Assembly (NCBI GenBank): GCA_946186925.1
Contig: CAMHPA010000011.1
Span: 5,130-69,129, forward strand
Source: an uncultured Bacteroidota bacterium
Lineage (GTDB): Bacteria > Bacteroidota > Bacteroidia > Bacteroidales > SZUA-534
Length of the DNA stretch: 64,000 nt
Direction of reading: 5' to 3'
Shown: positions 3,965 to 44,548 of the stretch, piece after piece
How the letters are laid out: every line of letters begins with the position of its first letter
Numbering within the stretch: the stretch's first letter is position 1
The notes under the pieces: model-generated
The model's input: only the letters and a program-made list of their open reading frames with translations
What the model was told of the DNA's origin: nothing
Database searches by the model: none
Made by a program: the position numbers and the translations under genes

Positions 3965-5338
3965 ATGGCACAAGTTCAGACACCATCGATACCAAAAGGC
4001 ACGCGCGATTTCGGTCCGGCCGAGATGATTAAGCGCAACTACATTTTCGATACCATCAAAAGTGTGTTCAAACTCTATGGTTTTCAGCAGATTGAGACAC
4101 CCGCAACCGAGAACCTCTCAACTCTGATGGGCAAGTACGGCGAGGAGGGCGACAAACTGCTCTTCAAGATTCTGAACTCGGGCGATTATCTTGGCAATGT
4201 TGATGCCGAACTTCTGCAATCGAAAGATTCTGTGAAAGTTACCAACAAGATTTCGGAAAAAGGCCTGCGTTACGACCTGACCGTGCCGTTTGCGCGTTTT
4301 GTGGTGCAGCACCGCAACGACCTTCAGTTCCCGTTCAAGCGTTATCAGATTCAACCCGTTTGGCGTGCCGATAAGCCCCAGAAGGGCCGTTACCGTGAGT
4401 TCTACCAGTGCGATGTCGACATTGTTGGCAGCGACTCGCTGATGAACGAAGTTGAACTGATTCAGATAGTTAACGATGTCTATCAGCGTTTCGGAATCCG
4501 CGTGGCGCTGAAAATCAACAACCGCAAGATTCTGGCAGGAATTGCCGAAGCCATCGGTGCACCCGACAAGATGATGGACATCACCGTTGCCATCGACAAA
4601 CTTGACAAAATCGGAATTGAGAACGTCAACAAAGAGTTGGCCGACAAGGGTTTGAGTAGCGATTCAATTGCCCGCTTGCAGCCGATTCTGGCCTTGAGCG
4701 GCGATAATCGCCAGAAACTTGCACAAATCGCCAACGTGCTGAAAGACAGCGAAGTGGGACAGAAGGGCATTGTCGAACTGACCGCTATTTTCGATGCCAT
4801 TGAGCCGCTTGGCCTGCAAACGCAAATCGACCTCGACCTGACGTTGGCCCGCGGCCTGAACTACTACACGGGCGCCATCTTCGAGGTTAAGGCGCTCGAT
4901 GTGCAGATTGGTTCAATTACAGGCGGCGGCCGCTATGATGACCTGACGGGAATTTTCGGAATGCCAGGCGTTTCGGGCGTTGGCATCTCGTTTGGTGCCG
5001 ACCGCATCTACGATGTGCTCGACCAACTTAATCTATACCCGCAGTCGGCAACGCAATCAACTCAACTGCTGTTTGTTACATTCGGCGAAGCCGAGCAGCA
5101 ATGGTGCCTACCCGTGGTTGCTAAAATGCGTGCTGCTGGCATCAGCACCGAACTCTATCCCGAGCCGGCAAAAATGAAGAAACAGATGTCGTACGCCAAC
5201 GGGCGCAACATCCCGTTTGTGGCTGTGGTGGGCGAGAACGAGGTGAACGAGGGCAAGGTGATGCTGAAGAATATGGCAACCGGTGAGCAGCAGTTGCTTT
5301 CGCCCGACGAAGTTGTTGACTTGCTGAAAAACAAATAG
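3965..5338 (+). CDS. hisS: histidine--tRNA ligase
   Basis: Class II aaRS motifs: [43 protein letters not shown]...[10 protein letters not shown], and a C-terminal anticodon-binding domain. ATG at 3965 ([12 protein letters not shown]) is preferred over the TTG at 3941. Confidence 0.95.
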
Positions 5339-5407
5339 ATTCGTTGTAAAGCTTGTTATCGAATTGACAAAATAGAAGCCGTTTTTGTTATACAACTTTG
5401 TAGAATC

Positions 5408-6184
5408 CTATCTGATTGGATATTCGTCGTGAATGTCTGACAGCACCTCCACTCCGGTTTCGGTAACCAGCACGGTGTGCTCAAACTGCGCCGACAGCTT
5501 GCCGTCGATGGTGCGCGCCGTCCAGCCGTCGTTCTTGTCAATATCAACGCGGGCCTTGCCTTGGTTAATCATCGGCTCAATGGTGAAAATCATTCCTGGA
5601 CGCATAATGGCACCCGAGTTGCGGCGGGCGATGTGGTCAACCTGCGGCTCCTCGTGGAATTCAATGCCCACGCCGTGTCCGCAGAACTCCCAAACAACGC
5701 TGTAGCCTTTCATCTGCGCGTATCGGGCAATGAAAAACCCGATGTTGCCGAAAGTGTTTTTCGGGCGCACCTGCTCAATGCCCAAATCGAGGCAATGCTT
5801 GGTTGCATCTATCAGGTCCTGAGCCTGTTGCGAGATTTCGCCAACGGTGAACATCCGGCTGGTGTCGCCATAGTAGCCGTTGAGAATGGTGGTGACATCG
5901 ATGTTGACAATGTCGCCTTCTTTGAGGATGGTGTCGGGCGAAGGAATGCCGTGGCACACCACGTTGTTGGGCGATATGCAGCAGTATTTCGGGAAGTCGC
6001 CGTAACCCTTGCACGCCGATATGGCGCCGTGGTCGCAGATGAACTCGTTGATGAGGTTGTCGAGGCGCTCGGTGTCAACGCCCGGCTTAATGTATTCTCC
6101 GATGAAATCGAGCGAAGCAGCCGCCAGTTTCGCGCTCTTGCGGATGCCGTCAATCTGCTCTGCGTTCTTGATTAAGATACCCAT
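5408..6184 (-). CDS. map: type I methionine aminopeptidase
   Basis: VCHGIPS, DIVNIDVT...GYYGDTS, FCGHGVGIEFHEEP, FTIEPM and EHTVLVT metal-ligand pattern. ATG at 6184 (MGILIKNAEQIDG) is preferred over the 31-codon upstream extension. Confidence 0.95.
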   Translation of the reverse strand: MGILIKNAEQIDGIRKSAKLAAASLDFIGEYIKPGVDTERLDNLINEFICDHGAISACKGYGDFPKYCCISPNNVVCHGIPSPDTILKEGDIVNIDVTTILNGYYGDTSRMFTVGEISQQAQDLIDATKHCLDLGIEQVRPKNTFGNIGFFIARYAQMKGYSVVWEFCGHGVGIEFHEEPQVDHIARRNSGAIMRPGMIFTIEPMINQGKARVDIDKNDGWTARTIDGKLSAQFEHTVLVTETGVEVLSDIHDEYPIR

Positions 6185-19071: not shown

Positions 19072-19317
19072 TGCTTTAAAGTTTAATGTGTGCCAAAAGT
19101 ACGCAATTGTGAGAATTGAGCAAGGATTTTATCTTTAGCAAAAGGCGTGGCGCAAGAATGCTGATATTGGAAGAAATGTTCATAACCGTCAAAATAATTC
19201 GTTAAACGTGCGTTATGGTCATTCTGATTGTTAGTTTTTAATAGCGTTAAAAAGGTGCAAGCAATCGGATTTTGTGTATCTTGTTGCACTTTTTTGAATC
19301 GAAATAATGGAATACCG

Positions 19318-20712
19318 ATGAACAAAAAAATTATCAATCTGCTTGGAATCTTGTGCGCGTGTCCGGCACTTCTGGTTGCGCAAGATGTTGATGACGAAAC
19401 CAATATGGTGTTCAATCCGAGCTTCGAACAGTATGAGAAGTGTCCTGAAGGCTACATTTACAACGACAAATCGCACCGGCTGATACCGCACTGGACATAC
19501 CCGTCGTTTACAACGCCCGACTACTTCAACAAGTGCAGCACCGGCGAAGTGCGCGTGCCTGACAATTTTGCGGGTTACAGCCAGCCGCATAGCGGAAAGG
19601 GTTATATGGGCGCTATACTCACTGGTTCAGACCGCGACTACCGTGAGTACATCCAAGGAGAGCTGAAAACTCCTATGAAATCAGGGCAGGTTTACTGCGT
19701 GTCGTTTTGGTACAAGCTGGCCAACGGCTCTATGTTTGCCGTGGATCAAATGAGTATCTACTTCACTGAGCAAAAGATAGAAAATGGCAACAACACGTTT
19801 CTAAGCTATAACTCACAGTTGAACAACGAGTCGGGCTTGTTCCTCGACAATACTGACGAGTGGAAGCATTACTGCATGCTATACACGGCATCGGGTAACG
19901 AGTCGTTCTTTATTGTTGGTAATTTCAAAAACTATGAGAACACCAACTATGTGGTCACTGGCAAGGATGTGCAGAACAAGAAAGGCAAGAAATACGCATA
20001 TTATTTCTTCGACGATTTCGAGATTCGTCCGCTTACCGATTGCGATGTGTGCGCCTGTGTGCCGAAAGGCCTTGAGACTGTGATTGTTGACTCGGTTTAT
20101 ACCGGCGGTTTGGACCCGGTGACGGGCAAAATACAGCGCATCATCGACGATGGTGTCATCAGTCTTGGCATTTCGGGTGGAACACCTCCATATAATGTTA
20201 AATGGTCGAATGGCGCGACAGGGCAGAAGCTCACTAATCTGCCGGCCGGTACCTATACTTATAATGTATCGGACCAGAATAATTGCCACAATAGCGGCAA
20301 GGTAGTTTTTGTTCAGCCAGAAATACCCGAAGATCCCTTTACCGATGGTCTGCGTAATATTGAGGAGGGTTCGGCGCTAATTCTGAACAACATCTTCTTC
20401 GAGACTGGCAAAAGCACACTGCTTCCGCAGTCGAACGCAGAACTTGACAAAGTGGCGGCATTCCTGGCAGAAGGAACTGTCAGTCAGATAGAAATCAGCG
20501 GTCATACTGATAACGTGGGCTCTGATGAGCTTAACCTCAAACTGAGTCAGGCACGAGCTCAAGCTGTGGTCAATTACTTGGTGTCGAAGGGAATAAACGC
20601 CAATATGCTGCAAGCCAAGGGCTATGGCAAAACTCGCCCCATCGACACTAACCTCACCGAGCAAGGCAAGAGCAACAATCGCCGAGTTGAATTTTTTGTT
20701 TTAAAGAAGTAA
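19318..20712 (+). CDS. OmpA-family protein with SprB-type repeat and C-terminal OmpA/MotB peptidoglycan-binding domain
   Basis: Signal peptide MNKKIINLLGILCACPALLVAQ (ATG at 19318). ISGGTPPYNVKWSNGATGQKLTNLPAGTYTYNVSDQNNC is SprB-repeat-like. The C-terminus NIFFETGKSTLL...ISGHTDNVGSDELNLKLSQARAQAV...NRRVEF is an OmpA_C domain. Confidence 0.85.
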   Translation: MNKKIINLLGILCACPALLVAQDVDDETNMVFNPSFEQYEKCPEGYIYNDKSHRLIPHWTYPSFTTPDYFNKCSTGEVRVPDNFAGYSQPHSGKGYMGAILTGSDRDYREYIQGELKTPMKSGQVYCVSFWYKLANGSMFAVDQMSIYFTEQKIENGNNTFLSYNSQLNNESGLFLDNTDEWKHYCMLYTASGNESFFIVGNFKNYENTNYVVTGKDVQNKKGKKYAYYFFDDFEIRPLTDCDVCACVPKGLETVIVDSVYTGGLDPVTGKIQRIIDDGVISLGISGGTPPYNVKWSNGATGQKLTNLPAGTYTYNVSDQNNCHNSGKVVFVQPEIPEDPFTDGLRNIEEGSALILNNIFFETGKSTLLPQSNAELDKVAAFLAEGTVSQIEISGHTDNVGSDELNLKLSQARAQAVVNYLVSKGINANMLQAKGYGKTRPIDTNLTEQGKSNNRRVEFFVLKK

Positions 20713-20723
20713 TATAACCGACT

Positions 20724-22727
20724 ATGAACAAGCGTATTATATTTACAATAATGCTGTCGGCTGCTGTTGTTTTCACAGCATCGGCACAGAAACCTGAAAA
20801 AGCTTTTGAGGATATTGTCGCCGGAGTGAAAGCGAAAGAGCGTCAGCCTGATGTCGATAACAACATGAACAAGGCTCGCGCCACATTGGAAAAGATTCTG
20901 GCTAAAGACGCCAGCAACGCCATGGCTAATATGGGTATGGCCATAATTCTGTCATATGACGCCTATTCGCAAAAAGACTATTTCCGCGGCTGGCACTACT
21001 TTAAGAAAGCCGATGCAGGCGTTTCAACATTCACGCCAGATGATAAAAAGGTGCTTGACGGCTACTTTATGGCCCAAAAACTTGAACGACGTGGAAAGCC
21101 TATTGACAAGAACATGGAAATTGAGCGTAACTTGGTGGAGGAGAAGCTGATAAAGTTTGTCCGTGAGGAGAATAACCTGCAATACGCCGAAAAATTCCTT
21201 GAGGAGTTCCCCGATTCTAAATACTACAACAATGTAGTGCATATCCGCAATTATATTGAGTTCCGTAAGGCCGAGAACGCAGGAACGGTTGAGGCTTTCA
21301 ACTATTTCCTGAGCAAATACCCTGACGCCGCGCAGACAAAAATAGCGTCGGAGGAACGTAACGCACTGGCTTACAAGCTGACACAGGAGGCTAATACCTT
21401 TGCCGCCTACAAGAATTTCGTTGATAACTACCCCGATGCCGTTCAATATGAGGAGGCAAAGAAGAAGCTGGGTATTTTGGCTTTCGACGAAGCTGCAAAA
21501 AAGCATACTCTCGAAGCCATTGAGCAGTTTATGGAACAATATCCCAACTCGCCCAAAATGCCCGATGCCAAGATTATGAAACGCCAACTGTTGTTTGAAT
21601 GGGCCAAATCAGTCAACAGCCTTGAGGCATACAATAAATTTGTGTCGCAATATCCTGAAGGAGAGATGTTTATCGACATCTTTAACCTTAAATCGGCCGC
21701 TCTTGGGCAGTCAATCGCTGCCGACCTGCCGATGGAAAACTATAAGGTTATTCGCGGATTCGACAACAAACAGGCGCGCGATTACGGTGGCGCCATTGCC
21801 ACATACACCGATGGTACGATACTGGTAATTGCCAACACCCCCTCACTTAATGACGACATGGATGATGTTTGGATGATTAAGCTCGACGCAGAAGGTAGGA
21901 TGATTAAGAACGACATCCTGGGCAACGATTTCGATGATCGTGTGAATACAGCTTATATTGACAAGGCAGGCGCACTCTCTGGAGCCGGTCTGACAAACGC
22001 CATCAAAGATAATGTGCCCGGGCAGTCGTGGTTCTTTAAGATGAATCCGCAGGGCAAGAACATCTGCAACGCTAAATTCGAGGGCAACGAGGTTCTGTCG
22101 ATGGTGGTTTACGAAGACGGACGCTCGCTGCTTGGCGGTTATCTGCAAGCCGCTGATACGGTTGAGCCCACGCCGCTAATCACCAAACTCAACGCCCAGG
22201 GCCGTAAGCTCTGGACGCGTACTTACGCTCCCGGGCATAAGGTTACATCAATGGCTTCCGACGGCCGCATGTGCAGCATTGCCTTCAACGGCGGCTGGGT
22301 GATGCAGATTGACGAGTTGGGCTACATCAAATGGGATGCTATGGTAGATGGCTGCAATCTGTCTGCTGTCGCCACGGCAAATGGCAAAACCGTTTACACC
22401 GGAACCAAAGAGGGGCAGGGATGTGCTGTCGCTTTCGACCTCAATGGCAAGAAACTTTGGGAGACTGCTTTTGAGTTGCCAGCCGAGGGCAGTTTCACCC
22501 AAAGCTGCACCATGCCCGACGGCTCGGTAATTAGCGGCGGATCATTCGGAAACGCTATGGTACTGGTCAAAGTTGACAATAGCGGTAAAATTGTTTTTGC
22601 CAAAACATTCGATGCTTCGAAATCAGTGTCGTTTAACGGACTGGCCGCATCGGCCGCCGACAATTCGGTCTGGGTTAGTGCCACATATGCCGATTCTGAC
22701 ATTGTGGTGTTCAAATTGGGATTGTAA
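20724..22727 (+). CDS. secreted hypothetical protein: helical (A/F)xxFxxxYP repeats followed by a beta-propeller-like C-terminal half
   Basis: Signal peptide MNKRIIFTIMLSAAVVFTASAQ. Five copies of an xFxxxYPxxxxxxxA helical repeat (FLEEFPDSKYY, FLSKYPDAAQ, FVDNYPDAVQ, FMEQYPNSPK, FVSQYPEGEM). The C-terminal half is rich in repeated beta-strand/G-D-G patterns. It starts 11 nt after the OmpA-family gene. Confidence 0.55.
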   Translation: MNKRIIFTIMLSAAVVFTASAQKPEKAFEDIVAGVKAKERQPDVDNNMNKARATLEKILAKDASNAMANMGMAIILSYDAYSQKDYFRGWHYFKKADAGVSTFTPDDKKVLDGYFMAQKLERRGKPIDKNMEIERNLVEEKLIKFVREENNLQYAEKFLEEFPDSKYYNNVVHIRNYIEFRKAENAGTVEAFNYFLSKYPDAAQTKIASEERNALAYKLTQEANTFAAYKNFVDNYPDAVQYEEAKKKLGILAFDEAAKKHTLEAIEQFMEQYPNSPKMPDAKIMKRQLLFEWAKSVNSLEAYNKFVSQYPEGEMFIDIFNLKSAALGQSIAADLPMENYKVIRGFDNKQARDYGGAIATYTDGTILVIANTPSLNDDMDDVWMIKLDAEGRMIKNDILGNDFDDRVNTAYIDKAGALSGAGLTNAIKDNVPGQSWFFKMNPQGKNICNAKFEGNEVLSMVVYEDGRSLLGGYLQAADTVEPTPLITKLNAQGRKLWTRTYAPGHKVTSMASDGRMCSIAFNGGWVMQIDELGYIKWDAMVDGCNLSAVATANGKTVYTGTKEGQGCAVAFDLNGKKLWETAFELPAEGSFTQSCTMPDGSVISGGSFGNAMVLVKVDNSGKIVFAKTFDASKSVSFNGLAASAADNSVWVSATYADSDIVVFKLGL

Positions 22728-22766
22728 TTTGTTTTCACACAACAATAAAATGCGCAGTGCGCATTT

Positions 22767-22797
22767 AAGGCTGCCTCTTTCGGGGTAGCCTTTTTTT
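22767..22797 (+). terminator. rho-independent terminator after 20724-22727
   Basis: Stem aaggctgcc / ggtagcctt with loop tctttcgg, followed by TTTTTTT. It is preceded by a second palindrome, aaatgcgcagtgcgcattt (22747-22765). Confidence 0.7.
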
Positions 22798-22977
22798 ATG
22801 GTTTTACGTAGAAATAAACTGCATCTTGGCATAAACTGATGTTATGAATTCCCGTTTGACAATATCAATATAAACCGTAATATTGTGCGTTTTTTTTAGC
22901 AAGATTCTGATAATCAGTGCTAAAAGTGATGGTGGTAGATTAAGAAATTATTAATCAATTAAATAGAAACTGTAATT

Positions 22978-25035
22978 ATGTTGAACAAGAAACGTCTTCC
23001 GATTGGTGATTCGCTTGCAATGATAGGCGGCTACGCCAAATCGCGGATTATGGGACAGATAAAGTCGGTAGCCTTTATCATCCTATACCTTGTGTTTTTT
23101 CAGGTGGCCATTCTGCGCACGCCGCTGGCCAACGCTTGGGGAACGGCGGGCGGCATCGCCCTTGTGGTGTTCGGTCTGGCCTTCTTCCTTGAGGGACTCG
23201 TGCTGGGTATGATGCCCATTGGCGAGCGCGTGGGAGTGAAGTTGCCCGCCAAAGTTGGCATTGTGCCAATCTGCATCTTCGGCATCATTCTGGGCTTCGG
23301 CTCAACGCTTGCCGAGCCTGCCATCAGTTCGCTGAAGACGGCTGGCGCAACCATCACGGCGTGGGACTCACCGCTGCTTTATATGATTCTCGACAAATAC
23401 TCGGGAATGCTTGTCAACGCCGTTGGAGCGGGCGTGGGACTGGCCGTGGCGCTCGGTATGTGCCGATTCTACTATGGCTGGAACATCAAACCGATAATAT
23501 TCGTGGTGATTCCGCTGGTTATGGCAATGACGGTTTACGCGTCGTTCAACGTCAATCTGTCGAAGATAATCGGCCTGGCTTGGGACTGTGGCGCCGTAAC
23601 CACTGGTGCGGTGACCGTGCCGCTTGTGCTGGCGCTGGGTATCGGTGTTTCACGCACGGCCAACAAGGGTTCGGGCAACGACGGCGGATTCGGCATCATT
23701 ATGCTGGCGTCGGCATTCCCGATTGCGGCTGTGCTGGGCCTTGGCTTGTATCTGAACACGCTCATTCCCGCCGCAACAACCGAGGAAGTCTTCTTCGCGC
23801 CTGAAAACAAGACCGTTTCGGCTCAACTGTTCAACGGCAACGAGGCAATGGTTGCCGAGCACGCCTTCACTCACGGCAGCGAGGCGGGCCGCCGCGCCTT
23901 GTTCGGCAACGATTCGGCGCAGTTCGACAAAGCTGTTATGGCCATCGCCACAAACGATTCGGTTTGCAAGAAATATCTTGGAAATGAGACACTTCAGGAG
24001 TGGCTCGCACTTCGTGCAAGCGATTACGAGCGCGGGCTGCTGTCGTCGGTTGAGATTGCAAGCGAGGCGCCCGTCACCGAGCCGCTGAGCACAACGCTCA
24101 AAGAGGAGACGGTTGGCGGCCTGCGGGCTGTGATTCCGCTCACGCTGCTGCTCATTCTGGTGCTGACGCTCTTCCTTCGCGAGAAAATCCGCAACAAAGA
24201 CGAAGTGGCTCTGGGCCTGACATTCACGCTGGTGGGTATGATTCTGCTCACATCGGGCATCAAACTTGGTTTGGGTTCGCTCGGCGGCGAAGTGGGCTCG
24301 CAGTTGCCGAAGGCTTTCGCAAGCGAGGAGAAGTTTGTTGAGCAGGTGGTTATCAATAATTTCGACAGCACAATGCTCTACAGCGGCATCAGCCCCGAGG
24401 GCGAAAATCTGACCTTCTTCAACCTTTACGAGAAGGGCGAGGTTAAGCCCGTTGAGTTCAATCCCGCTTATTACGACAGTGAGAAACACACTTATACACA
24501 GATAATTACCGAAAAGCCGCTGTTCAACAGCAAGTTGTCGGTTTTGGGACTTGTGCTGGTGCTGCTGTTCGCCTTCGGCCTTGGCTATGGCGCGACACTT
24601 GCCGAGCCCGCGCTTAACGCATTGGGAATCACCGTTGAAGACCTGACCGTTGGCGCCATCAAGCGCAAGCAGATTGTGCAGGTGGTGTCGGTGGGCGTGG
24701 GAATGGGCATTGTGCTCGGTTTGGCGCGCATCTTGTTCGATTTGCCGCTTGTCTGGCTGATAGTCATCTCTTACGGTTTGCTGCTGATTCTCACCATTTT
24801 CAGCGAGGACGGATTCGCGTCAATCGCCTGGGATAGCGGCGGCGTGACCACTGGCCCCGTGACCGTGCCGCTGGTGCTGGCTCTGGGCCTTGGAATCGGC
24901 GGAGCGCTCAACATTTCCGACGGTTTCGGCATTCTGGCAATGGCTTCGGCCTGGCCAATCATCACTGTGCTTCTGTTCGGCATCTTCACCCGACTGAAAC
25001 AACGTAAAACCCTAAAGACCAATGACAATGAATGA
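22978..25035 (+). CDS. membrane protein made of two fused DUF1538-like halves separated by soluble inserts
   Basis: Internal duplication. First half: TLAEPAISSLKTAG...AWDCGAVTTGAVTVPLVLALGIG. Second half: TLAEPALNALGITVE...AWDSGGVTTGPVTVPLVLALGLG. The (A)WDxGxVTTGxVTVPLxLALG motif is what I recall as the DUF1538 signature. There are more than 10 predicted TM helices, a ~120-aa hydrophilic linker (aa ~265-385) and a second ~65-aa insert. Confidence 0.7.
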   Translation: MLNKKRLPIGDSLAMIGGYAKSRIMGQIKSVAFIILYLVFFQVAILRTPLANAWGTAGGIALVVFGLAFFLEGLVLGMMPIGERVGVKLPAKVGIVPICIFGIILGFGSTLAEPAISSLKTAGATITAWDSPLLYMILDKYSGMLVNAVGAGVGLAVALGMCRFYYGWNIKPIIFVVIPLVMAMTVYASFNVNLSKIIGLAWDCGAVTTGAVTVPLVLALGIGVSRTANKGSGNDGGFGIIMLASAFPIAAVLGLGLYLNTLIPAATTEEVFFAPENKTVSAQLFNGNEAMVAEHAFTHGSEAGRRALFGNDSAQFDKAVMAIATNDSVCKKYLGNETLQEWLALRASDYERGLLSSVEIASEAPVTEPLSTTLKEETVGGLRAVIPLTLLLILVLTLFLREKIRNKDEVALGLTFTLVGMILLTSGIKLGLGSLGGEVGSQLPKAFASEEKFVEQVVINNFDSTMLYSGISPEGENLTFFNLYEKGEVKPVEFNPAYYDSEKHTYTQIITEKPLFNSKLSVLGLVLVLLFAFGLGYGATLAEPALNALGITVEDLTVGAIKRKQIVQVVSVGVGMGIVLGLARILFDLPLVWLIVISYGLLLILTIFSEDGFASIAWDSGGVTTGPVTVPLVLALGLGIGGALNISDGFGILAMASAWPIITVLLFGIFTRLKQRKTLKTNDNE

Positions 25036-26239
25036 TAATATGGAAATGGTGAATGCGAACAGGAACCGCGCATTCTCGCCGTCGCGTACCGTTTGGCGGA
25101 CGCAAATGGCCAAAGGCATCTACACGCCGCATCGCGTGAGCCTTATAACCTGTATGATTAACAATAATTTGGCGCCTGTTGTGCAGGATTTTCTGACGCA
25201 ACTCGAGGTTGACGCCTACATTGAGCAGGCCCGAAACGTGCGCGAACTTGTCAAGCCGCTGCCGTTCGGCATTCCTGGCGACACAGTGAAGTTAAGAAGC
25301 ACACCTTCAACCATTTTCCGCTTCACCGTGCCGCGCGAGAACGTGAGAGACACCATTGGCGCCATCATCGCCCTGGCGGGACTGAACGTGCCTGGCCGCG
25401 GAACCATCTTCTCGCAGGACCTTATGGAGTTCAGCAATCAGCCGCCTGTCATCAATCTGGCTTTTCTGGATAGCAAAAAGGTTGAAAACAACGACGTTAC
25501 GCTGCTGAATCACCTTTCGTATATGATTTGCGTGCTGTCGGAGAACGGCGAGGGCGACAATCTGGCCAAGAACGCGCTCGACCTGGGCATCTGCGTGCCG
25601 CAACTCACCAACGCCACTGGCAACGACATCCGCGACCAACTGGGCCTTATCCGCGTCACCATCCCCGCTGAAAAGGAGATTGTGCACCTGATTATGCCCG
25701 AGCAGGATTCGAGCAGCATTGCCCAACTGCTGGCTGAGCAGGCCAAACTCGACCGCCCTGGACGAGGATTCATCTACCAAACGCCTATCACTGTGGGACT
25801 TATCGACACCTATATGAAGATTGGCGGGCAGAAGTTCGCCGCGTCAATGGAGCAGGTGATAGCCGCCATCGACTCGCTCAAGGGCAACACCAACTGGCGC
25901 CGCCGCTTGGACGCCGAAGGGTCGGCCGACAATCGCAACGCCTGTGTTCATTCTGACAACTGCGAGGTGACCATCATATCGGACGAGGACCGCATCGACG
26001 ACCTGCGCGCCACCTGCCTGAGCGTGGGCGCAACAGGCGCAACCACAACGCGCATCACCCGCATATCGGGGCAAGGCGAACTTGGCAAACAGTCGCTCGT
26101 GCGCAGCGCCGTGAGCATTCCCGCTTCAATGGCCGACGCGGTGGTTGATTCGCTGCTGCAAATCAGCACCATCGACAAGGAAAACGTTGACAAAATCAAA
26201 GTTCTCGACTCGCCTTCGACGTATGTCAGGGCGCTGTAG
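25022..26239 (+). CDS. hypothetical regulator with three tandem P-II-like (beta-alpha-beta x2) repeats
   Basis: The start overlaps the DUF1538 gene stop by 14 nt. Three ~100-aa repeats share one pattern. Strand 1: VSLITCMI / LSYMICVL / CEVTIISD. Helix 1: LAPVVQDFLTQL / GDNLAKNALDLG / RIDDLRATCLSVG. The end motif is PGRGTIFSQ / PGRGFIYQT in repeats 1 and 2, positionally like the GlnB GDGKIFV strand. Repeat 3 is degenerate. Confidence 0.5.
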   Translation: MTMNDNMEMVNANRNRAFSPSRTVWRTQMAKGIYTPHRVSLITCMINNNLAPVVQDFLTQLEVDAYIEQARNVRELVKPLPFGIPGDTVKLRSTPSTIFRFTVPRENVRDTIGAIIALAGLNVPGRGTIFSQDLMEFSNQPPVINLAFLDSKKVENNDVTLLNHLSYMICVLSENGEGDNLAKNALDLGICVPQLTNATGNDIRDQLGLIRVTIPAEKEIVHLIMPEQDSSSIAQLLAEQAKLDRPGRGFIYQTPITVGLIDTYMKIGGQKFAASMEQVIAAIDSLKGNTNWRRRLDAEGSADNRNACVHSDNCEVTIISDEDRIDDLRATCLSVGATGATTTRITRISGQGELGKQSLVRSAVSIPASMADAVVDSLLQISTIDKENVDKIKVLDSPSTYVRAL

Positions 26240-26352: not shown

Positions 26353-27459
26353 TCAATGTTTTATGAATTGCCGAATGGCGTAGCCTTGAGTTGTGTGTAT
26401 AATTACATAATTTACCCCCTGCGGTAGATTGCTTATGCTGTACGAAGCCTGTAGGCCTGCAGCAGACAGAACCCGTCCGCTTGCATTTACAAATTCCACG
26501 CTCACAATGCCGTCCCCATTAATTTGCACATAATCGGTTGCTGGATTCGGATAAATCTTTATGTCGATATTGCTGACGTTGGCGGTCTGGTGCCCGGCAA
26601 GGGAGAGAGCCACAATGTCAGAGCATTCCGTTTGGCCGTCGTAATCGGTCTGGCGCAGACGGTAATACATCACACCGGTAGCATTTGTGCTGTAATTGTA
26701 TTCATAGTTTATTATTTCCGTTGACGTGCCTGCACCGCTCACTGTTGCCAGCTCGCTGAAGTTAAGCGCATCGGTACTGTACTCAATGGTGAAGTAGTCG
26801 TTGTCCTTCTCCGAGGCCGTCTGCCACTCGAATTTTACGCCATTCGAAGTTTGACGGGCAATGAAATAGGTGAGTTCAATGGGTAGAGGTGTAATCGATA
26901 CAAGAGCTTCTGGAACATCAATATTAGCGCTTTCCAGAATCTCGGTCAATTCATTTGTTATCAATGCCAGAACTTCCCGGTCTGCATATCCCGCACCTGG
27001 CAGATATGTGTTGCATTCGTTGCCCATACTATTATCAGCCACATCAAGGATAAAATTATTGCTTCCGGTTAAACCACCGATAGCTGCAAAATCAGAGTCG
27101 TTAGATAAATTGGCATGTCCGTTTGACTCAACTACTCCGGTAACCATTACTATCGCGCCTTCTTCCACATTCACTGTAGCCCCATTTTTTATACGCAGGT
27201 TACCTTCAACAAGCAAAGTAGCACCAGTAATAGTTAATGTGCCATTAACAATAATGTTTCCTTTAACTCTAACAATTGAACCGTCAGAAATGGTCGTATT
27301 GGTGATATTATACTCGCTTTTTCCGGTATATTCTTTTATCTTATTGTTTATTACATCGGGTAAGTCAGATTTTGGTCCTCCAAATACATCACCTGCAAAG
27401 CCAGTCAACAGCAATGCCAACAAAATAATATTTTTCCTAAGTCTCATCATAGTTTCCAT
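26353..27459 (-). CDS. T9SS C-terminal-target-domain protein (beta-helix-like N-terminal region, Ig/FN3-like module, Por CTD)
   Basis: ATG at 27459 gives the signal peptide METMMRLRKNIILLALLLTGFAGDVFG. The region GSIVRVKGNIIVNGTLTITGATLLVEGNLRIKNGATVNVEEGAIVMVTG is beta-helix-like. The C-terminus IKIYPNPATDYVQINGDG...LPQGVNYVIIHTTQGYAIRQFIKH is a typical T9SS CTD. The gene is AT-rich relative to its flanks. Confidence 0.8.
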   Translation of the reverse strand: METMMRLRKNIILLALLLTGFAGDVFGGPKSDLPDVINNKIKEYTGKSEYNITNTTISDGSIVRVKGNIIVNGTLTITGATLLVEGNLRIKNGATVNVEEGAIVMVTGVVESNGHANLSNDSDFAAIGGLTGSNNFILDVADNSMGNECNTYLPGAGYADREVLALITNELTEILESANIDVPEALVSITPLPIELTYFIARQTSNGVKFEWQTASEKDNDYFTIEYSTDALNFSELATVSGAGTSTEIINYEYNYSTNATGVMYYRLRQTDYDGQTECSDIVALSLAGHQTANVSNIDIKIYPNPATDYVQINGDGIVSVEFVNASGRVLSAAGLQASYSISNLPQGVNYVIIHTTQGYAIRQFIKH

Positions 27460-27573
27460 TTTTTTGTTGCTTATATACGAACCTTTTGAAAATTTGTTCG
27501 TTTTTGCTCGCGTTTTAATAGTAAACTTACTGATTGTCAGAACATTACCATTGTGCGCTTTGAAATGTGAAAT

Positions 27574-27665
27574 CAAAATCAAAGTTCTCGGCTCGCCTTC
27601 GACGTCAGAGCTTTGCAAGAGATTGTGTTAGATAACTGAAGACGATTCGGGCGGCTTTTTTTAGT
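27574..27665. repeat. direct repeat copy 2 (relic of the P-II-like gene 3' end and terminator)
   Basis: The sequence is aaaatcaaagttctcgGctcgccttcgacgtcagag...gttagataactgaagacgattcggGcggcttttttt. In frame it still encodes KIKVLGSPST, against KIKVLDSPST at the real gene end. Confidence 0.85.
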
Positions 27666-27751
27666 ATATTTAACGTGTCAGTAGAGGTGGGTCCCATTAC
27701 TTGCTGTTTTCCCGAAAAACCATTTTCTTTGCCACACAAAATAATACGAAT

Positions 27752-28303
27752 ATGAAAATAGAAAATGGAAAAATGGTGTCGGTGACTTACGAGTTGAAGT
27801 ATGACGACGCTGATGCGAAACTGATAGAAGTGTGTGATAAAAGCCGTCCGCTGACATTCCTATTCGGTGCTGGCATGATGTTGCCGCATTTCGAGAAGAA
27901 TCTTGATGGCCTTGAGAATGGCTCGTTGTTCGATTTTGTGCTGACAGCCGATCAGGCTTACGGTCAGGTTACTGAAGAAGCCATTGTCGATGTGCCAATT
28001 AATGTCTTTCAGGATGAAAGCGGTAAAGTGAACAAGGAACTTATTACCGTTGGCAACACAATTCCTATGATGGATGCCCACGGAAACCGTCTGCATGGCG
28101 TTGTTGTGTCATCGACAGCTGAGGCGGTGAAAATGGATTTCAACCACCCGCTTGCAGGTGCCGACCTTCATTTTAAAGGCAAAGTGATTGAAGTTCGCAA
28201 TCCCACTATGGCCGAGCTTGAACGCAATTGCGGCGGAGGTTGTGGGGGTGGTTGCAACTGCGCCGACAAAGGCAAAGATAGTGGTTGCAGCGGTTGCTGC
28301 TAA
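27752..28303 (+). CDS. slyD: FKBP-type peptidyl-prolyl cis-trans isomerase SlyD-like, with Cys/Gly-rich C-terminal tail
   Basis: MKIENGKMVSVTYELKYDD...PLTFLFGAGMMLPHFEKNLDGL...MDFNHPLAGADLHFKGKVIEVR shows the FKBP + IF-domain architecture. The tail is CGGGCGGGCNCADKGKDSGCSGCC. Confidence 0.85.
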   Translation: MKIENGKMVSVTYELKYDDADAKLIEVCDKSRPLTFLFGAGMMLPHFEKNLDGLENGSLFDFVLTADQAYGQVTEEAIVDVPINVFQDESGKVNKELITVGNTIPMMDAHGNRLHGVVVSSTAEAVKMDFNHPLAGADLHFKGKVIEVRNPTMAELERNCGGGCGGGCNCADKGKDSGCSGCC

Positions 28304-44475: not shown

Positions 44476-44548
44476 CGGAGTTTAGCGCAGTTGGTAGCGC
44501 GCTACGTTCGGGACGTAGAGGTCGCTGGTTCGAATCCAGTAACTCCGA
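44476..44548 (+). tRNA. tRNA-Pro (anticodon CGG)
   Basis: Hand-folded cloverleaf. Acceptor CGGAGTT/AACTCCG, D-arm GCGC-AGTTGGTA-GCGC, anticodon arm CTACG-TTCGGGA-CGTAG (C34 G35 G36, G37), variable AGGTC, T-arm GCTGG-TTCGAAT-CCAGT, discriminator A. Length 73 nt, no encoded CCA. Confidence 0.95.

What the first reader, a model, noticed from the sequence alone, without database searches (positions are those of the whole stretch)
22978..26239. Fused double-DUF1538 membrane protein translationally coupled to a P-II-like protein: a candidate uncharacterised transporter-regulator pair
Seen: a 685-aa polytopic protein contains two copies of the same module. Each copy has TLAEPA(I/L) and AWD(C/S)G(A/G)VTTG(A/P)VTVPLVLALG(I/L)G. 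The copies are joined by a ~120-aa hydrophilic linker, and the second half carries an extra ~65-aa insert. The next gene overlaps its stop by 14 nt and reads as P-II-like repeats.

Established knowledge: P-II-family proteins gate membrane transporters by direct plugging, as in GlnK-AmtB and SbtB-SbtA. As far as I know, DUF1538 has no assigned function.

Inference: the pair is a plausible solute or ion (possibly inorganic carbon/nitrogen) transporter with a nucleotide- or metabolite-sensing plug. The fusion of two halves would fix a pseudo-dimeric transporter in a single chain.
Basis: partly seen in the sequence, partly recalled or inferred. Interest (0 to 1): 0.65.

Follow-up and report, generated by a model that had tools for sequence, protein, structure and literature searches.

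The report
PII-regulated DUF1538 transporter gene pair
A rumen Bacteroidota genome carries a two-gene unit, a membrane transporter made of two oppositely oriented DUF1538 halves fused into one chain followed by a soluble protein made of three PII-type sensor domains in one chain, and this transporter-plus-PII pairing turned up in every lineage sampled but is not described in the papers that could be searched.

Summary
ORF A (22978-25035, 685 aa) holds two DUF1538 modules. ORF B (25022/25028-26239, about 404 aa) overlaps its stop codon.

B is three tandem PII-like domains, shown by the AlphaFold2 model, Foldseek matches to GlnK/GlnB, and profile comparisons.

- **Pairing:** B homologues lie directly downstream in all 75 fused-DUF1538 loci with enough sequence, across 11 or more phylum-level labels. 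Split DUF1538 pairs carry a single PII gene. Shorter clostridial fusions carry a double PII.
- **Outdated premise:** DUF1538 is not function-less. UmpAB of Halomonas is a Na+(Li+,K+)/H+ antiporter that works without any PII. The window protein scores far below the UmpA/UmpB equivalog cut-offs.
- **Substrate:** nothing supports a carbon or nitrogen substrate. Potassium channels next to the pair in seven loci point to monovalent cations.
- **New point:** charge bias shows the two halves, and the split genes, are inverted relative to each other (7+7 antiparallel).

Best reading: a PII-like, probably single-chain pseudo-trimeric regulator gates a cation/proton exchanger. Binding, ligand and substrate are inferred.

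Novelty: new variant of a known kind. Interest 0.6.

The parts
22767..22792 (+). Terminator-like hairpin plus T-run after the upstream gene (20724-22727). It marks the pair as its own transcription unit.
   Evidence: 11-bp stem, 6 GC pairs, T-run; sequence
22856..22883 (+). Promoter-like site (TTGACA, 16 nt, TAATAT) about 95 nt upstream of ORF A
   Evidence: 10 of 12 matches. This is a consensus match only. Bacteroidota promoters differ, so it is weak evidence.
22978..25035 (+). ORF A, 685 aa: a fused double-DUF1538 polytopic membrane protein (UmpA-like half plus UmpB-like half)
   Evidence: PF07556, 350.6 bits, 2 stretches; NF041627 216 bits on aa 25-256; NF041628 150 bits on aa 527-675; both far below cut-offs
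23050..23757 (+). N-terminal DUF1538 module (aa ~25-260), 7 predicted TM helices, N-terminus in and C-terminus out. It carries TLAEPAI (aa 110-116, nt 23305-23325) and AWDCGAVTTGAVTVPLVLALGIG (aa 201-223, nt 23578-23646).
   Evidence: K+R: N-term 5.2, loop 2-3 3.0, loop 6-7 2.4, against 0.4-1.0 in the alternate loops
23758..24105 (+). Hydrophilic all-helical linker domain (aa ~261-376), net acidic, predicted periplasmic. Conserved H295, H299, R305, W342 and E351.
   Evidence: net charge -6. Its location is inferred from the positive-inside rule.
24106..25032 (+). C-terminal DUF1538 module (aa ~377-685), 7 predicted TM helices in the opposite orientation (N-terminus out, C-terminus in). It carries TLAEPAL (aa 540-546, nt 24595-24615) and AWDSGGVTTGPVTVPLVLALGLG (aa 617-639, nt 24826-24894).
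24274..24531 (+). Beta-rich insert in loop 2'-3' of the second half (aa ~433-518), net acidic, predicted periplasmic. UmpB also has an enlarged loop II-III.
   Evidence: (strands 452-512)
25022..26239 (+). ORF B, 405 aa (403 aa from the likelier start at 25028): a soluble protein of three tandem PII-like domains, translationally coupled to A
25127..25432 (+). PII-like repeat R1 (aa 36-137): long beta2-beta3 hairpin (aa 65-104) and B-loop-like PGRGTIF (aa 124-130)
   Evidence: (R1 against DUF1538-linked single PII: probability 95%, E 3e-8)
25514..25789 (+). PII-like repeat R2 (aa 165-256), the most PII-like. Its conserved T-loop and beta3 read GNDIRDQLGLIRVTIPAEKE (aa ~200-219, nt 25619-25678). 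Its B-loop-like motif is PGRGFIY (aa 246-252).
   Evidence: aligns to GlnK1 61-97; invariant R, G, R, K across phyla; probability 98%, E 1.7e-13 against single PII
25817..25921 (+). Inter-repeat segment (aa ~266-300) with invariant A, Q, D, W and R (AASMEQVIAAIDSLKGNTNWRRR). It is highly conserved but modelled with low confidence, which makes it a candidate partner-binding element.
   Evidence: (pLDDT 50-59). Its role is inferred.
25958..26206 (+). PII-like repeat R3 (aa 313-395). It keeps the alpha1-beta2 junction VGATGATTT but lacks the PGRG B-loop motif.
   Evidence: P-II 20.9 bits on aa 315-378; R3 against single PII: probability 82%, E 1e-5

Best explanation
The two genes encode a transporter and its dedicated cytoplasmic PII-type regulator.

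**Protein A.** A is a member of the DUF1538/UmpAB family in which the two homologous 7-TM subunits are fused into one chain. In other bacteria these are separate genes that form a heterodimer. The two halves sit in the membrane in opposite orientations, giving an inverted 7+7 repeat. The helical linker domain and the beta insert face the periplasm. The conserved TLAEPA and AWDxGxVTTGxVTVPLVLALG motifs occur once per half and most likely line the ion pathway.

**Protein B.** B consists of three diverged copies of the small PII-like protein that follows split DUF1538 genes elsewhere. Most likely it folds as a single-chain pseudo-trimer, so its three faces are no longer equivalent. R2 keeps the conserved T-loop. 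R1 carries a long hairpin. R3 keeps only one half of a nucleotide site.

**Proposed mechanism.** B docks on the asymmetric cytoplasmic face of A and opens or closes it according to a bound small molecule. An adenine nucleotide or second messenger is the default expectation for the PII superfamily. GlnK does this for AmtB and SbtB for SbtA.

**Substrate.** The most likely substrate class is monovalent cation/proton exchange (Na+/K+/Li+ against H+), as measured for UmpAB.

**Shown here.** Family membership of A, the three-PII-domain make-up of B, strict gene linkage across phyla, and opposite charge bias of the halves.

**Inferred.** Physical A-B binding, the pseudo-trimer packing, the ligand, the direction of regulation and the substrate.
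For: **A is a DUF1538 protein.** PF07556 scores 350.6 bits in two stretches. The halves hit UmpA and UmpB respectively.

**Family function.** UmpAB is a heterodimeric Na+(Li+,K+)/H+ antiporter with 7 TMS per subunit, active in E. coli without a PII (PMC5484666).

**Inverted halves.** K+R counts alternate in opposite phase in the two halves over 42 homologues. The same holds in 5 split gene pairs: the first gene gives 6:0, 7:1, 6:0, 6:3 and 4:2; the second gives 3:7, 3:8, 1:9, 2:9 and 4:5.

**B is three PII domains.**
- AF2 model: pLDDT 78.6, pTM 0.81.
- Foldseek to GlnK/GlnB/PII: probability 1.00.
- R2 aligns with the GlnK1 B-loop region.
- R1+R2 are colinear with the clostridial double PII: probability 97.7%, E 2e-12.
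- All three repeats match DUF1538-linked single PII proteins.
- Those single and double proteins pass Pfam P-II.

**Linkage.**
- 75 of 75 loci with room, over at least 11 phylum-level labels, have B directly downstream.
- B-type ORFs are 350-426 aa throughout.
- Only A and B are conserved in these loci.
- Split pairs carry a single PII in 4 of 4 cases sampled and in Methylocystis.
- Five clostridial records carry a double PII.

**Translational coupling.** The overlap is 8 or 14 nt.

**Cation hint.** K+ channels of three architectures flank the pair in 7 loci, two of them on the same strand 23-53 nt after B. A P-type cation ATPase lies next to a split pair.

**Precedent.** PII proteins gating transporters is documented in bioRxiv 10.1101/2023.08.10.552651.
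Against: - No direct evidence of A-B contact. A complex could not be modelled here.
- The model coordinates could not be inspected, so the pseudo-trimer packing rests on pTM 0.81 and on complementary half-site motifs only.
- Double-PII relatives cannot close a trimer within one chain. This suggests trimerisation between chains is possible for this subfamily.
- The canonical PII signatures, as recalled from PROSITE, are absent from B and from the single DUF1538-linked PIIs. Nucleotide binding is therefore not assured.
- The window protein scores 216 and 150 bits against UmpA/UmpB cut-offs of 490 and 500 and is ~26-32% identical over a whole half (up to ~41% over the conserved ~145-residue core) to the split DUF1538 proteins compared here. 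Substrate transfer is weak.
- The KNabc complementation assay has given Na+/H+ activity for several unrelated families in the same laboratory's papers.
- K+ channel adjacency is seen in only 7 of 75 loci, and four of these are from one family.
- T-loops in this subfamily are shorter than in GlnK. A deep 'plug' is not implied.
Confidence: 0.6

Rival explanations
1. One reading: the pair is an inorganic carbon or nitrogen (bicarbonate, ammonium or similar) transporter with a C/N-sensing PII plug, analogous to SbtA-SbtB or AmtB-GlnK.
For: PII-superfamily proteins encoded next to transporters classically control C or N uptake. One locus (L082) has a SulP-STAS-cNMP gene directly after B, and the SulP family includes bicarbonate carriers by general knowledge. 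Pfam's nearest model for B is the nitrogen regulator P-II.
Against: The only characterised DUF1538 member exchanges Na+/Li+/K+ for H+. No nitrogen or carbon assimilation genes are conserved around the pair in 80 loci. The recurrent neighbours are K+ channels. The canonical GlnB/GlnK signatures and the uridylylation-site motif are absent.
Confidence: 0.12
2. B is not a switch but an obligatory cytoplasmic subunit needed for assembly, stability or energy coupling of this subclass of DUF1538 transporters, in the way RCK rings (TrkA/KtrA) are integral to TrkH/KtrB.
For: Co-occurrence is absolute and the genes are translationally coupled. This fits a fixed-stoichiometry complex as well as it fits a regulator. 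The conserved inter-repeat helices of B, modelled at low confidence, look like a permanent docking element.
Against: UmpAB alone is active in E. coli KNabc without its PII. PII-fold proteins are, as far as is known, ligand-controlled regulators rather than structural subunits.
Confidence: 0.15
3. Architecture rival: B does not form a single-chain pseudo-trimer. Instead three B chains assemble so that each repeat type forms its own homotrimeric PII ring (R1x3, R2x3, R3x3). The regulator would then be a 9-domain particle able to bind up to three transporters.
For: The clostridial relatives have two PII domains per chain. They can only complete PII trimers between chains. PII-like domains of other multi-domain proteins trimerise between chains (SA1388, PMC1779786).
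Against: The AF2 monomer model packs the three domains confidently (pTM 0.81). The motifs are complementary. R3 keeps the GxxGxT-like alpha1-beta2 side but no B-loop, whereas R1 and R2 keep PGRG B-loops. Complete sites would therefore form only between different repeats. Exactly three repeats are kept in at least 200 clusters at 50% identity.
Confidence: 0.25
4. The pair is a membrane sensor or signalling module (a 'transceptor') rather than a flux-carrying transporter. The periplasmic linker domain and beta insert would sense an external cue, which B relays inside the cell.
For: The ~685-aa form has two large, conserved, probably periplasmic additions that the ~500-aa clostridial fusions and the split forms lack. 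Conserved His, Arg and Trp residues lie in the linker.
Against: The transmembrane motifs are as strictly conserved as in the active UmpAB-type proteins. There is no linked transcription factor, kinase or cyclase in 80 loci.
Confidence: 0.05

Closest known systems
UmpAB, the two-component Na+(Li+,K+)/H+ antiporter of Halomonas zhaodongensis (DUF1538 family; NCBIfam NF041627/NF041628; PMC5484666)
   Same: Same Pfam family (PF07556). Two homologous modules of 7 TM each. The N-half matches UmpA best and the C-half matches UmpB. UmpB also has an enlarged loop II-III where the window protein has its beta insert.
   Different: The subunits are fused into one 685-aa chain, with a ~115-aa helical linker domain. 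Scores are far below the equivalog cut-offs: 216 against 490 and 150 against 500. No PII partner was cloned or discussed for UmpAB. Transport was not tested here.
GlnK-AmtB and SbtB-SbtA (PII or PII-like protein encoded with, and gating, a transporter)
   Same: A PII-fold protein is encoded immediately next to a membrane transporter, in a conserved operon. The expected logic is ligand-dependent docking on the cytoplasmic face.
   Different: The transporter family is unrelated, and it is a pseudo-dimer of inverted halves rather than a homotrimer. The regulator is three diverged PII domains in one chain instead of a homotrimer. The canonical PII signatures are absent. T-loops are shorter, except for the R1 hairpin. 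No binding data exist.
DUF1538-linked single and double 'P-II family nitrogen regulator' proteins (e.g. Methylocystis rosea WP_124740562.1, 122 aa; Peptoclostridium acidaminophilum WP_025436965.1, 222 aa)
   Same: Direct homologues of B's repeats. They share the motifs G.G...(I/L)..I.PEKE.V and L..P(G/N).G..(F/Y). They occupy the same position right after the DUF1538 gene or genes.
   Different: They have one or two domains per chain, not three. They pass the Pfam P-II threshold, whereas the window protein does not. They lack the conserved inter-repeat helices and R3.
NifI1/NifI2 (heteromeric PII proteins of methanogen nitrogenase regulation; PDB 9p1x)
   Same: A precedent for a PII assembly built from non-identical PII modules. 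It is a weak sequence neighbour of R1 and R2.
   Different: The modules are separate chains. They regulate a soluble enzyme, not a transporter, and there is no DUF1538 link.

Membership tests
DUF1538 (Pfam PF07556) | Match to the family HMM above the gathering score | tested here: met
   350.6 bits against a cut-off of 22.6, in two stretches; the best covers profile positions 2-211 of 211
DUF1538 (Pfam PF07556) | Conserved glycine/threonine-rich transmembrane motif and TLAEPA motif in each module | tested here: met
   Both motifs are present once per half and invariant in 42 homologues
UmpA/UmpB Na,Li,K/H+ antiporter subunits (NCBIfam equivalogs NF041627, NF041628) | Score at or above the equivalog cut-off | tested here: not met
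   216 bits against 490 (UmpA) and 149.9 bits against 500 (UmpB). The protein is a family relative, not an equivalog.
UmpA/UmpB Na,Li,K/H+ antiporter subunits | Two separate homologous subunits forming a heterodimer, 7 TMS each | tested here: inconclusive
   Two 7-helix modules are predicted, but they are fused into one chain. Heterodimer formation is replaced by an intramolecular pseudo-dimer, which is inferred.
UmpA/UmpB Na,Li,K/H+ antiporter subunits | pH-dependent Na+(Li+,K+)/H+ antiport activity | not testable with these tools
   Needs everted-vesicle or proteoliposome assays, as in PMC5484666
P-II (Pfam PF00543; canonical GlnB/GlnK) | Match to the family HMM above the gathering score | tested here: not met
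   20.9 bits against 25, on R3 only. 8 of 38 cross-phylum homologues match at E<=0.01.
P-II (Pfam PF00543; canonical GlnB/GlnK) | Double beta-alpha-beta ferredoxin-like fold with T-loop and B-loop | tested here: met
   Three such units in the AF2 model. Foldseek probability 1.00 and target-normalised TM-score ~0.5-0.68 (best ~0.6-0.68) to GlnK/GlnB/PII structures.
P-II (Pfam PF00543; canonical GlnB/GlnK) | C-terminal signature [ST]-x3-G-[DY]-G-[KR]-[IV]-[FW]-[LIVM] and uridylylation-site signature Y-[KR]-G-[AS]-[AE]-Y (patterns recalled from PROSITE) | tested here: not met
   No regex match in B or in five DUF1538-linked single PIIs. Only the relaxed forms GRGTIF and GRGFIY are found.
P-II (Pfam PF00543; canonical GlnB/GlnK) | Homotrimer with three inter-subunit nucleotide sites; binds ATP/ADP (and 2-oxoglutarate) | not testable with these tools
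Ligand binding needs ITC, DSF or DRaCALA.
PII-gated transporter systems (GlnK-AmtB, SbtB-SbtA type) | PII-fold gene conserved next to the transporter gene | tested here: met
   75 of 75 fused loci, 4 of 4 split loci and 7 of 7 plasmid-collection records
PII-gated transporter systems (GlnK-AmtB, SbtB-SbtA type) | Direct, ligand-dependent binding of the PII protein to the cytoplasmic face of the transporter | not tested

The most novel reading that the evidence does not exclude
DUF1538 transporters and their PII-like partners form a third, phylogenetically broad PII-transporter paradigm alongside AmtB-GlnK and SbtA-SbtB. In it the regulator's oligomeric logic was rebuilt. A homotrimeric PII (split systems) became a single-chain, asymmetric pseudo-trimer (this window). 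Its three non-equivalent faces match the single asymmetric cytoplasmic face of an inverted-repeat 7+7 transporter. This couples monovalent-cation/proton exchange to an intracellular nucleotide or second-messenger signal.
Probability: 0.3. Interest if true: 0.8.

Novelty: new variant of a known kind. Interest (0 to 1): 0.6.

Why it matters
**For PII signalling.** PII proteins are among the most widespread signal transducers, yet only a few transporter targets are understood. These are AmtB, SbtA and the nitrate and urea ABC systems.

This work shows that a whole transporter family, DUF1538/UmpAB, is accompanied by its own PII-like protein wherever it was sampled. The family has only one studied member, and that member was studied without its partner.

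The partner comes in one-, two- and three-domain versions. This gives a natural series for asking how PII trimers evolve asymmetry.

**For transport studies.** The UmpAB results were obtained in the absence of the likely regulator. Physiological substrate and control may therefore differ from what was measured.

**For annotation.** About 200 clusters at 50% identity (E <= 1e-30) are mostly labelled 'hypothetical protein'. They can be annotated as triple PII-like, DUF1538-associated proteins.

**For membrane-protein evolution.** The split and fused forms, with opposite charge bias, are a clean example of an antiparallel pair captured both before and after fusion.

Tried and rejected
- **Riboswitch or leader RNA upstream of A.** Rfam at gathering threshold on the whole window found only a tRNA. 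A permissive scan of 22650-23050 gave only a chance snoRNA hit at E 0.94. Rejected.
- **Solved structure for DUF1538.** The profile search of PDB sequences gave no hit at E<=1. Foldseek of the AF2 model gave only spurious matches to large transporters (TM <=0.17, rmsd >25 A). No fold assignment was possible.
- **Whole-chain structural relative of B.** None was found. Only single PII domains match.
- **A conserved third gene.** All-against-all clustering of ORFs in 80 loci found none beyond lineage-local synteny.
- **Literature link between DUF1538 and PII.** Searches for DUF1538, UmpAB, PF07556 and tandem or fused PII terms gave none. Subscription-only reviews are not covered.
- **Borrelia BB0017 lead (PII-like with a membrane domain).** It is YitT/DUF2179, unrelated to DUF1538. 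Rejected.
- **PDB 9p1x with two PII chains.** This is the nitrogenase NifI complex, not a DUF1538 partner.
- **Rosetta-stone A-B fusion.** None appears among the best 150 representatives, which are all 113-436 aa.
- **Complex prediction.** Not attempted.

Full report
**1. What is in the sequence**

ORF A runs from 22978 to 25035 (+, 685 aa). ORF B runs from 25022 to 26239 (+, 405 aa).

A terminator-like hairpin (22767-22792) follows the upstream gene. A promoter-like site (22856-22883) precedes A. The next gene downstream of B is convergent. A and B therefore form a two-gene unit.

No RNA family matches the leader region.

The window is 99% identical at protein level to a contig of a sheep-rumen Salinivirgaceae MAG (Bacteroidota; L004).

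**2. Checking the observation**

- TLAEPA(I/L) lies at aa 110 and 540.
- The AWD...LALG(I/L)G motif lies at aa 201-223 and 617-639.
- The halves align at 36% identity, E 3e-21.

Pfam assigns DUF1538 with 350.6 bits in two stretches.

The linker (aa ~261-376) is an all-helical domain. The insert (aa ~433-518) is beta-rich in the AlphaFold2 model (pLDDT 74, pTM 0.74).

The 14-nt overlap holds for the first ATG. Homologues start at the position of the second ATG (25028), which gives an 8-nt overlap, as in locus L001. Either way the genes are translationally coupled.

**3. Protein B is three PII-like domains**

- The AlphaFold2 model (40-sequence alignment; pLDDT 78.6, pTM 0.81) shows three beta-alpha-beta-beta-alpha-beta units at aa 36-137, 165-256 and 313-395.
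- Foldseek against the PDB returns GlnK, GlnB and plant or cyanobacterial PII monomers. Probability is 1.00, target-normalised TM-score ~0.5-0.68 (best ~0.6-0.68), and for the best matches rmsd is about 2.6 A over about 83 residues. No whole-chain match was found.
- A profile of the family aligns R2 (aa 217-253) to the beta3-alpha2-B-loop region of M. jannaschii GlnK1.
- With a cross-phylum alignment the repeats are demonstrably homologous: R1-R2 E 1.5e-10, R2-R3 E 4.4e-6, R1-R3 E 1.3e-4.
- By sequence alone Pfam P-II stays under threshold: 20.9 bits against 25, and 8 of 38 homologues match at E<=0.01.
- The canonical PII signature patterns, recalled from PROSITE, are absent.

B is therefore PII-like, not a canonical GlnB/GlnK.

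**4. The pair is conserved**

A scan of one genome per species returned 80 loci that encode full-length fused A homologues (42-99% identity). By record title they come from these groups:
- Bacteroidota
- Spirochaetota
- Riflebacteria
- Kiritimatiellia/Pontiellaceae
- Lentisphaerae/Victivallales
- Planctomycetota
- Cloacimonadota
- Latescibacterota
- Delongbacteria
- Fibrobacterota
- Gemmatimonadota
- Bdellovibrionales

In all 75 loci that extend beyond A, a B homologue lies immediately downstream on the same strand. The other five loci end within 189 nt of A.

These ORFs are 350-426 aa, so the three-domain build is kept. Clustering of all flanking ORFs shows that only A and B are conserved.

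An exhaustive HMM search finds 201 representatives (50%-identity clusters) at E<=1e-30 and 499 at E<=1e-3. Almost all are 365-405 aa. None of the 150 listed is fused to a membrane domain.

**5. The linkage is a property of the whole DUF1538 family**

- In annotated plasmid and chromid records, Methylocystis rosea has two separate DUF1538 genes (219 and 242 aa) followed by a 122-aa 'P-II family nitrogen regulator'.
- Five clostridial records have a ~500-aa fused DUF1538 gene followed by a ~222-aa protein with two P-II domains.
- Four split pairs, taken from metagenome contigs of 169-840 kb, each have a 108-111-aa P-II gene directly after the second DUF1538 gene.
- B's R1+R2 align colinearly with the clostridial double PII (probability 97.7%, E 2e-12).
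- R2 aligns best with the single PIIs (probability 98%, E 1.7e-13).

The series is therefore:
- split genes with one PII domain;
- short fusion with two PII domains;
- long fusion with three PII domains.

**6. What is known about DUF1538**

UmpAB of Halomonas zhaodongensis is a heterodimer of two 7-TMS DUF1538 proteins. It confers Na+/Li+ and alkaline tolerance on E. coli KNabc. It shows pH-dependent Na+(Li+,K+)/H+ antiport in vesicles (PMC5484666).

NCBIfam carries equivalog models for both subunits. The window protein hits them (UmpA on the N-half, UmpB on the C-half) but at 216 and 150 bits, against cut-offs of 490 and 500. The fold and the general mechanism can be transferred. The substrate can be transferred only tentatively.

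UmpAB was active without any PII, which argues that the PII partner is regulatory rather than catalytic.

No paper in the searchable library connects DUF1538 with PII.

**7. The halves are inverted (new anatomical point)**

Lys+Arg counts were taken over 42 homologues.
- In the N-half, the N-terminus and loops 2-3, 4-5 and 6-7 are positive (5.2, 3.0, 1.0, 2.4). The alternate loops are not (0.4, 0.4, 1.0).
- In the C-half the phase is reversed. Loops 1'-2' and 3'-4' and the C-terminus score 3.9, 2.1 and 3.9. Loops 4'-5' and 6'-7' score 0.
- One short loop (5'-6') does not fit the pattern.

By the positive-inside rule, the N-half is N-in/C-out and the C-half is N-out/C-in. The acidic linker domain and the insert then face the periplasm.

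The same opposite bias separates the first and second genes of five split pairs. The family is therefore built from antiparallel partners, and the fusion makes a 7+7 inverted repeat.

The cytoplasmic face is then a single asymmetric surface. A three-fold-symmetric homotrimer cannot match such a surface, but a diverged single-chain pseudo-trimer can. This last step is inference.

**8. Features of B relevant to mechanism**

Cross-phylum invariant residues (confirmed) cluster in five places:
- the B-loop-like PGRG of R1;
- the B-loop-like PGRG of R2;
- the R2 T-loop and beta3 (G-x-R-D-x-L-G-L-x-R ... P-x-E-K-E);
- the segment between R2 and R3 (AAS-EQ-I-A-D ... W-R);
- the VGA-GAT junction of R3.

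The R2 T-loop and the inter-repeat helices are the least confident parts of the model (pLDDT 50-66) despite being the most conserved. This is typical of elements that order on binding a partner, so they are the best candidates for the contact with A.

R3 keeps the alpha1-beta2 side of a PII nucleotide site but not the B-loop. R1 and R2 keep B-loops. Complete sites would then form only between different repeats, which fits an intramolecular pseudo-trimer. The coordinates could not be inspected. The two-domain relatives show that assembly between chains is also possible, so this remains an open alternative.

**9. Substrate hints from context**

- Potassium channels lie next to the pair in seven loci.
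  - 2-TM channels with TrkA_N/TrkA_C occur in four Spirochaetaceae loci, at varying positions.
  - Slo-like RCK channels lie on the same strand 23-53 nt after B in L066 and L077.
  - A cyclic-nucleotide-gated channel lies in L083.
- One split pair sits between a P-type cation ATPase and a universal stress protein.
- One locus has a SulP-STAS-cNMP gene after B.

This is modest and partly non-independent evidence. It agrees with UmpAB in pointing to monovalent cation homeostasis rather than C or N uptake.

**10. Verdict**

The claim that the family has no known function is outdated, and the carbon/nitrogen guess is unsupported.

The most likely reading is a PII-like regulated cation/proton exchanger of the UmpAB family. 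Its regulator has become a three-domain single chain and its transporter a fused inverted repeat.

Physical interaction, ligand, direction of control and substrate remain to be shown.

Relative to known systems it is a new variant of a known kind (PII-gated transporters).

Noticed in passing
L045:8216-9109(-), L048:3847-4863(-), L049:2148-3203(-), L068:8190-8705(-), L066:8265-9614(+), L077:8241-9590(+), L083:8235-9554(-): Potassium channels of three different architectures lie next to the DUF1538/triple-PII pair in seven loci. The architectures are 2-TM with TrkA_N/TrkA_C, Slo-like RCK, and cyclic-nucleotide-gated 6-TM. In L066 and L077 the channel gene follows B on the same strand after 23-53 nt.
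   Followed up: partly
L082:8246-10516(+): In a Bdellovibrionales MAG, a SulP-family permease with STAS and cyclic-nucleotide-binding domains starts 7 nt after the B homologue on the same strand.
   Followed up: no
L089:1-2743 and 4784-5686: A split DUF1538 + DUF1538 + P-II operon is flanked by a P-type cation ATPase (upstream, same strand) and a tandem universal stress protein (downstream).
   Followed up: no
L085, L086, L091-L093 (clostridial plasmid/chromid records): Clostridia have an intermediate form: a ~500-aa fused DUF1538 without the large linker, followed by a ~222-aa protein with two P-II domains. A two-domain chain cannot close a PII trimer on its own, so its assembly state is unexplained.
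   Followed up: partly
window 23758-24105 (A aa 261-376): The linker between the two DUF1538 halves is a conserved helical domain with invariant H299, R305, W342 and E351. By charge bias it is predicted to be periplasmic. It is absent from split and clostridial forms, and its role is unknown.
   Followed up: partly
window 27701-28303 (+): An FKBP-type peptidyl-prolyl isomerase (SlyD-like) ends in a Cys/Gly-rich tail (NCGGGCGGGCNCADKGKDSGCSGCC), which suggests a metal-binding C-terminus.
   Followed up: no
window 26353-27618 (-) and 19228-20712 (+): The flanking genes encode a protein with a type IX secretion C-terminal sorting domain (Por_Secre_tail) and an OmpA-family protein with a SprB-like repeat. 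Both are typical of Bacteroidota, and neither is conserved next to the pair elsewhere.
   Followed up: partly
window 25022-25035: Two in-frame ATGs (25022 and 25028) could start B. The homologue alignment favours 25028, which changes the overlap with A from 14 to 8 nt.
   Followed up: yes
window 44476-44548 (+): A tRNA gene is the only Rfam gathering-level hit in the window.
   Followed up: no
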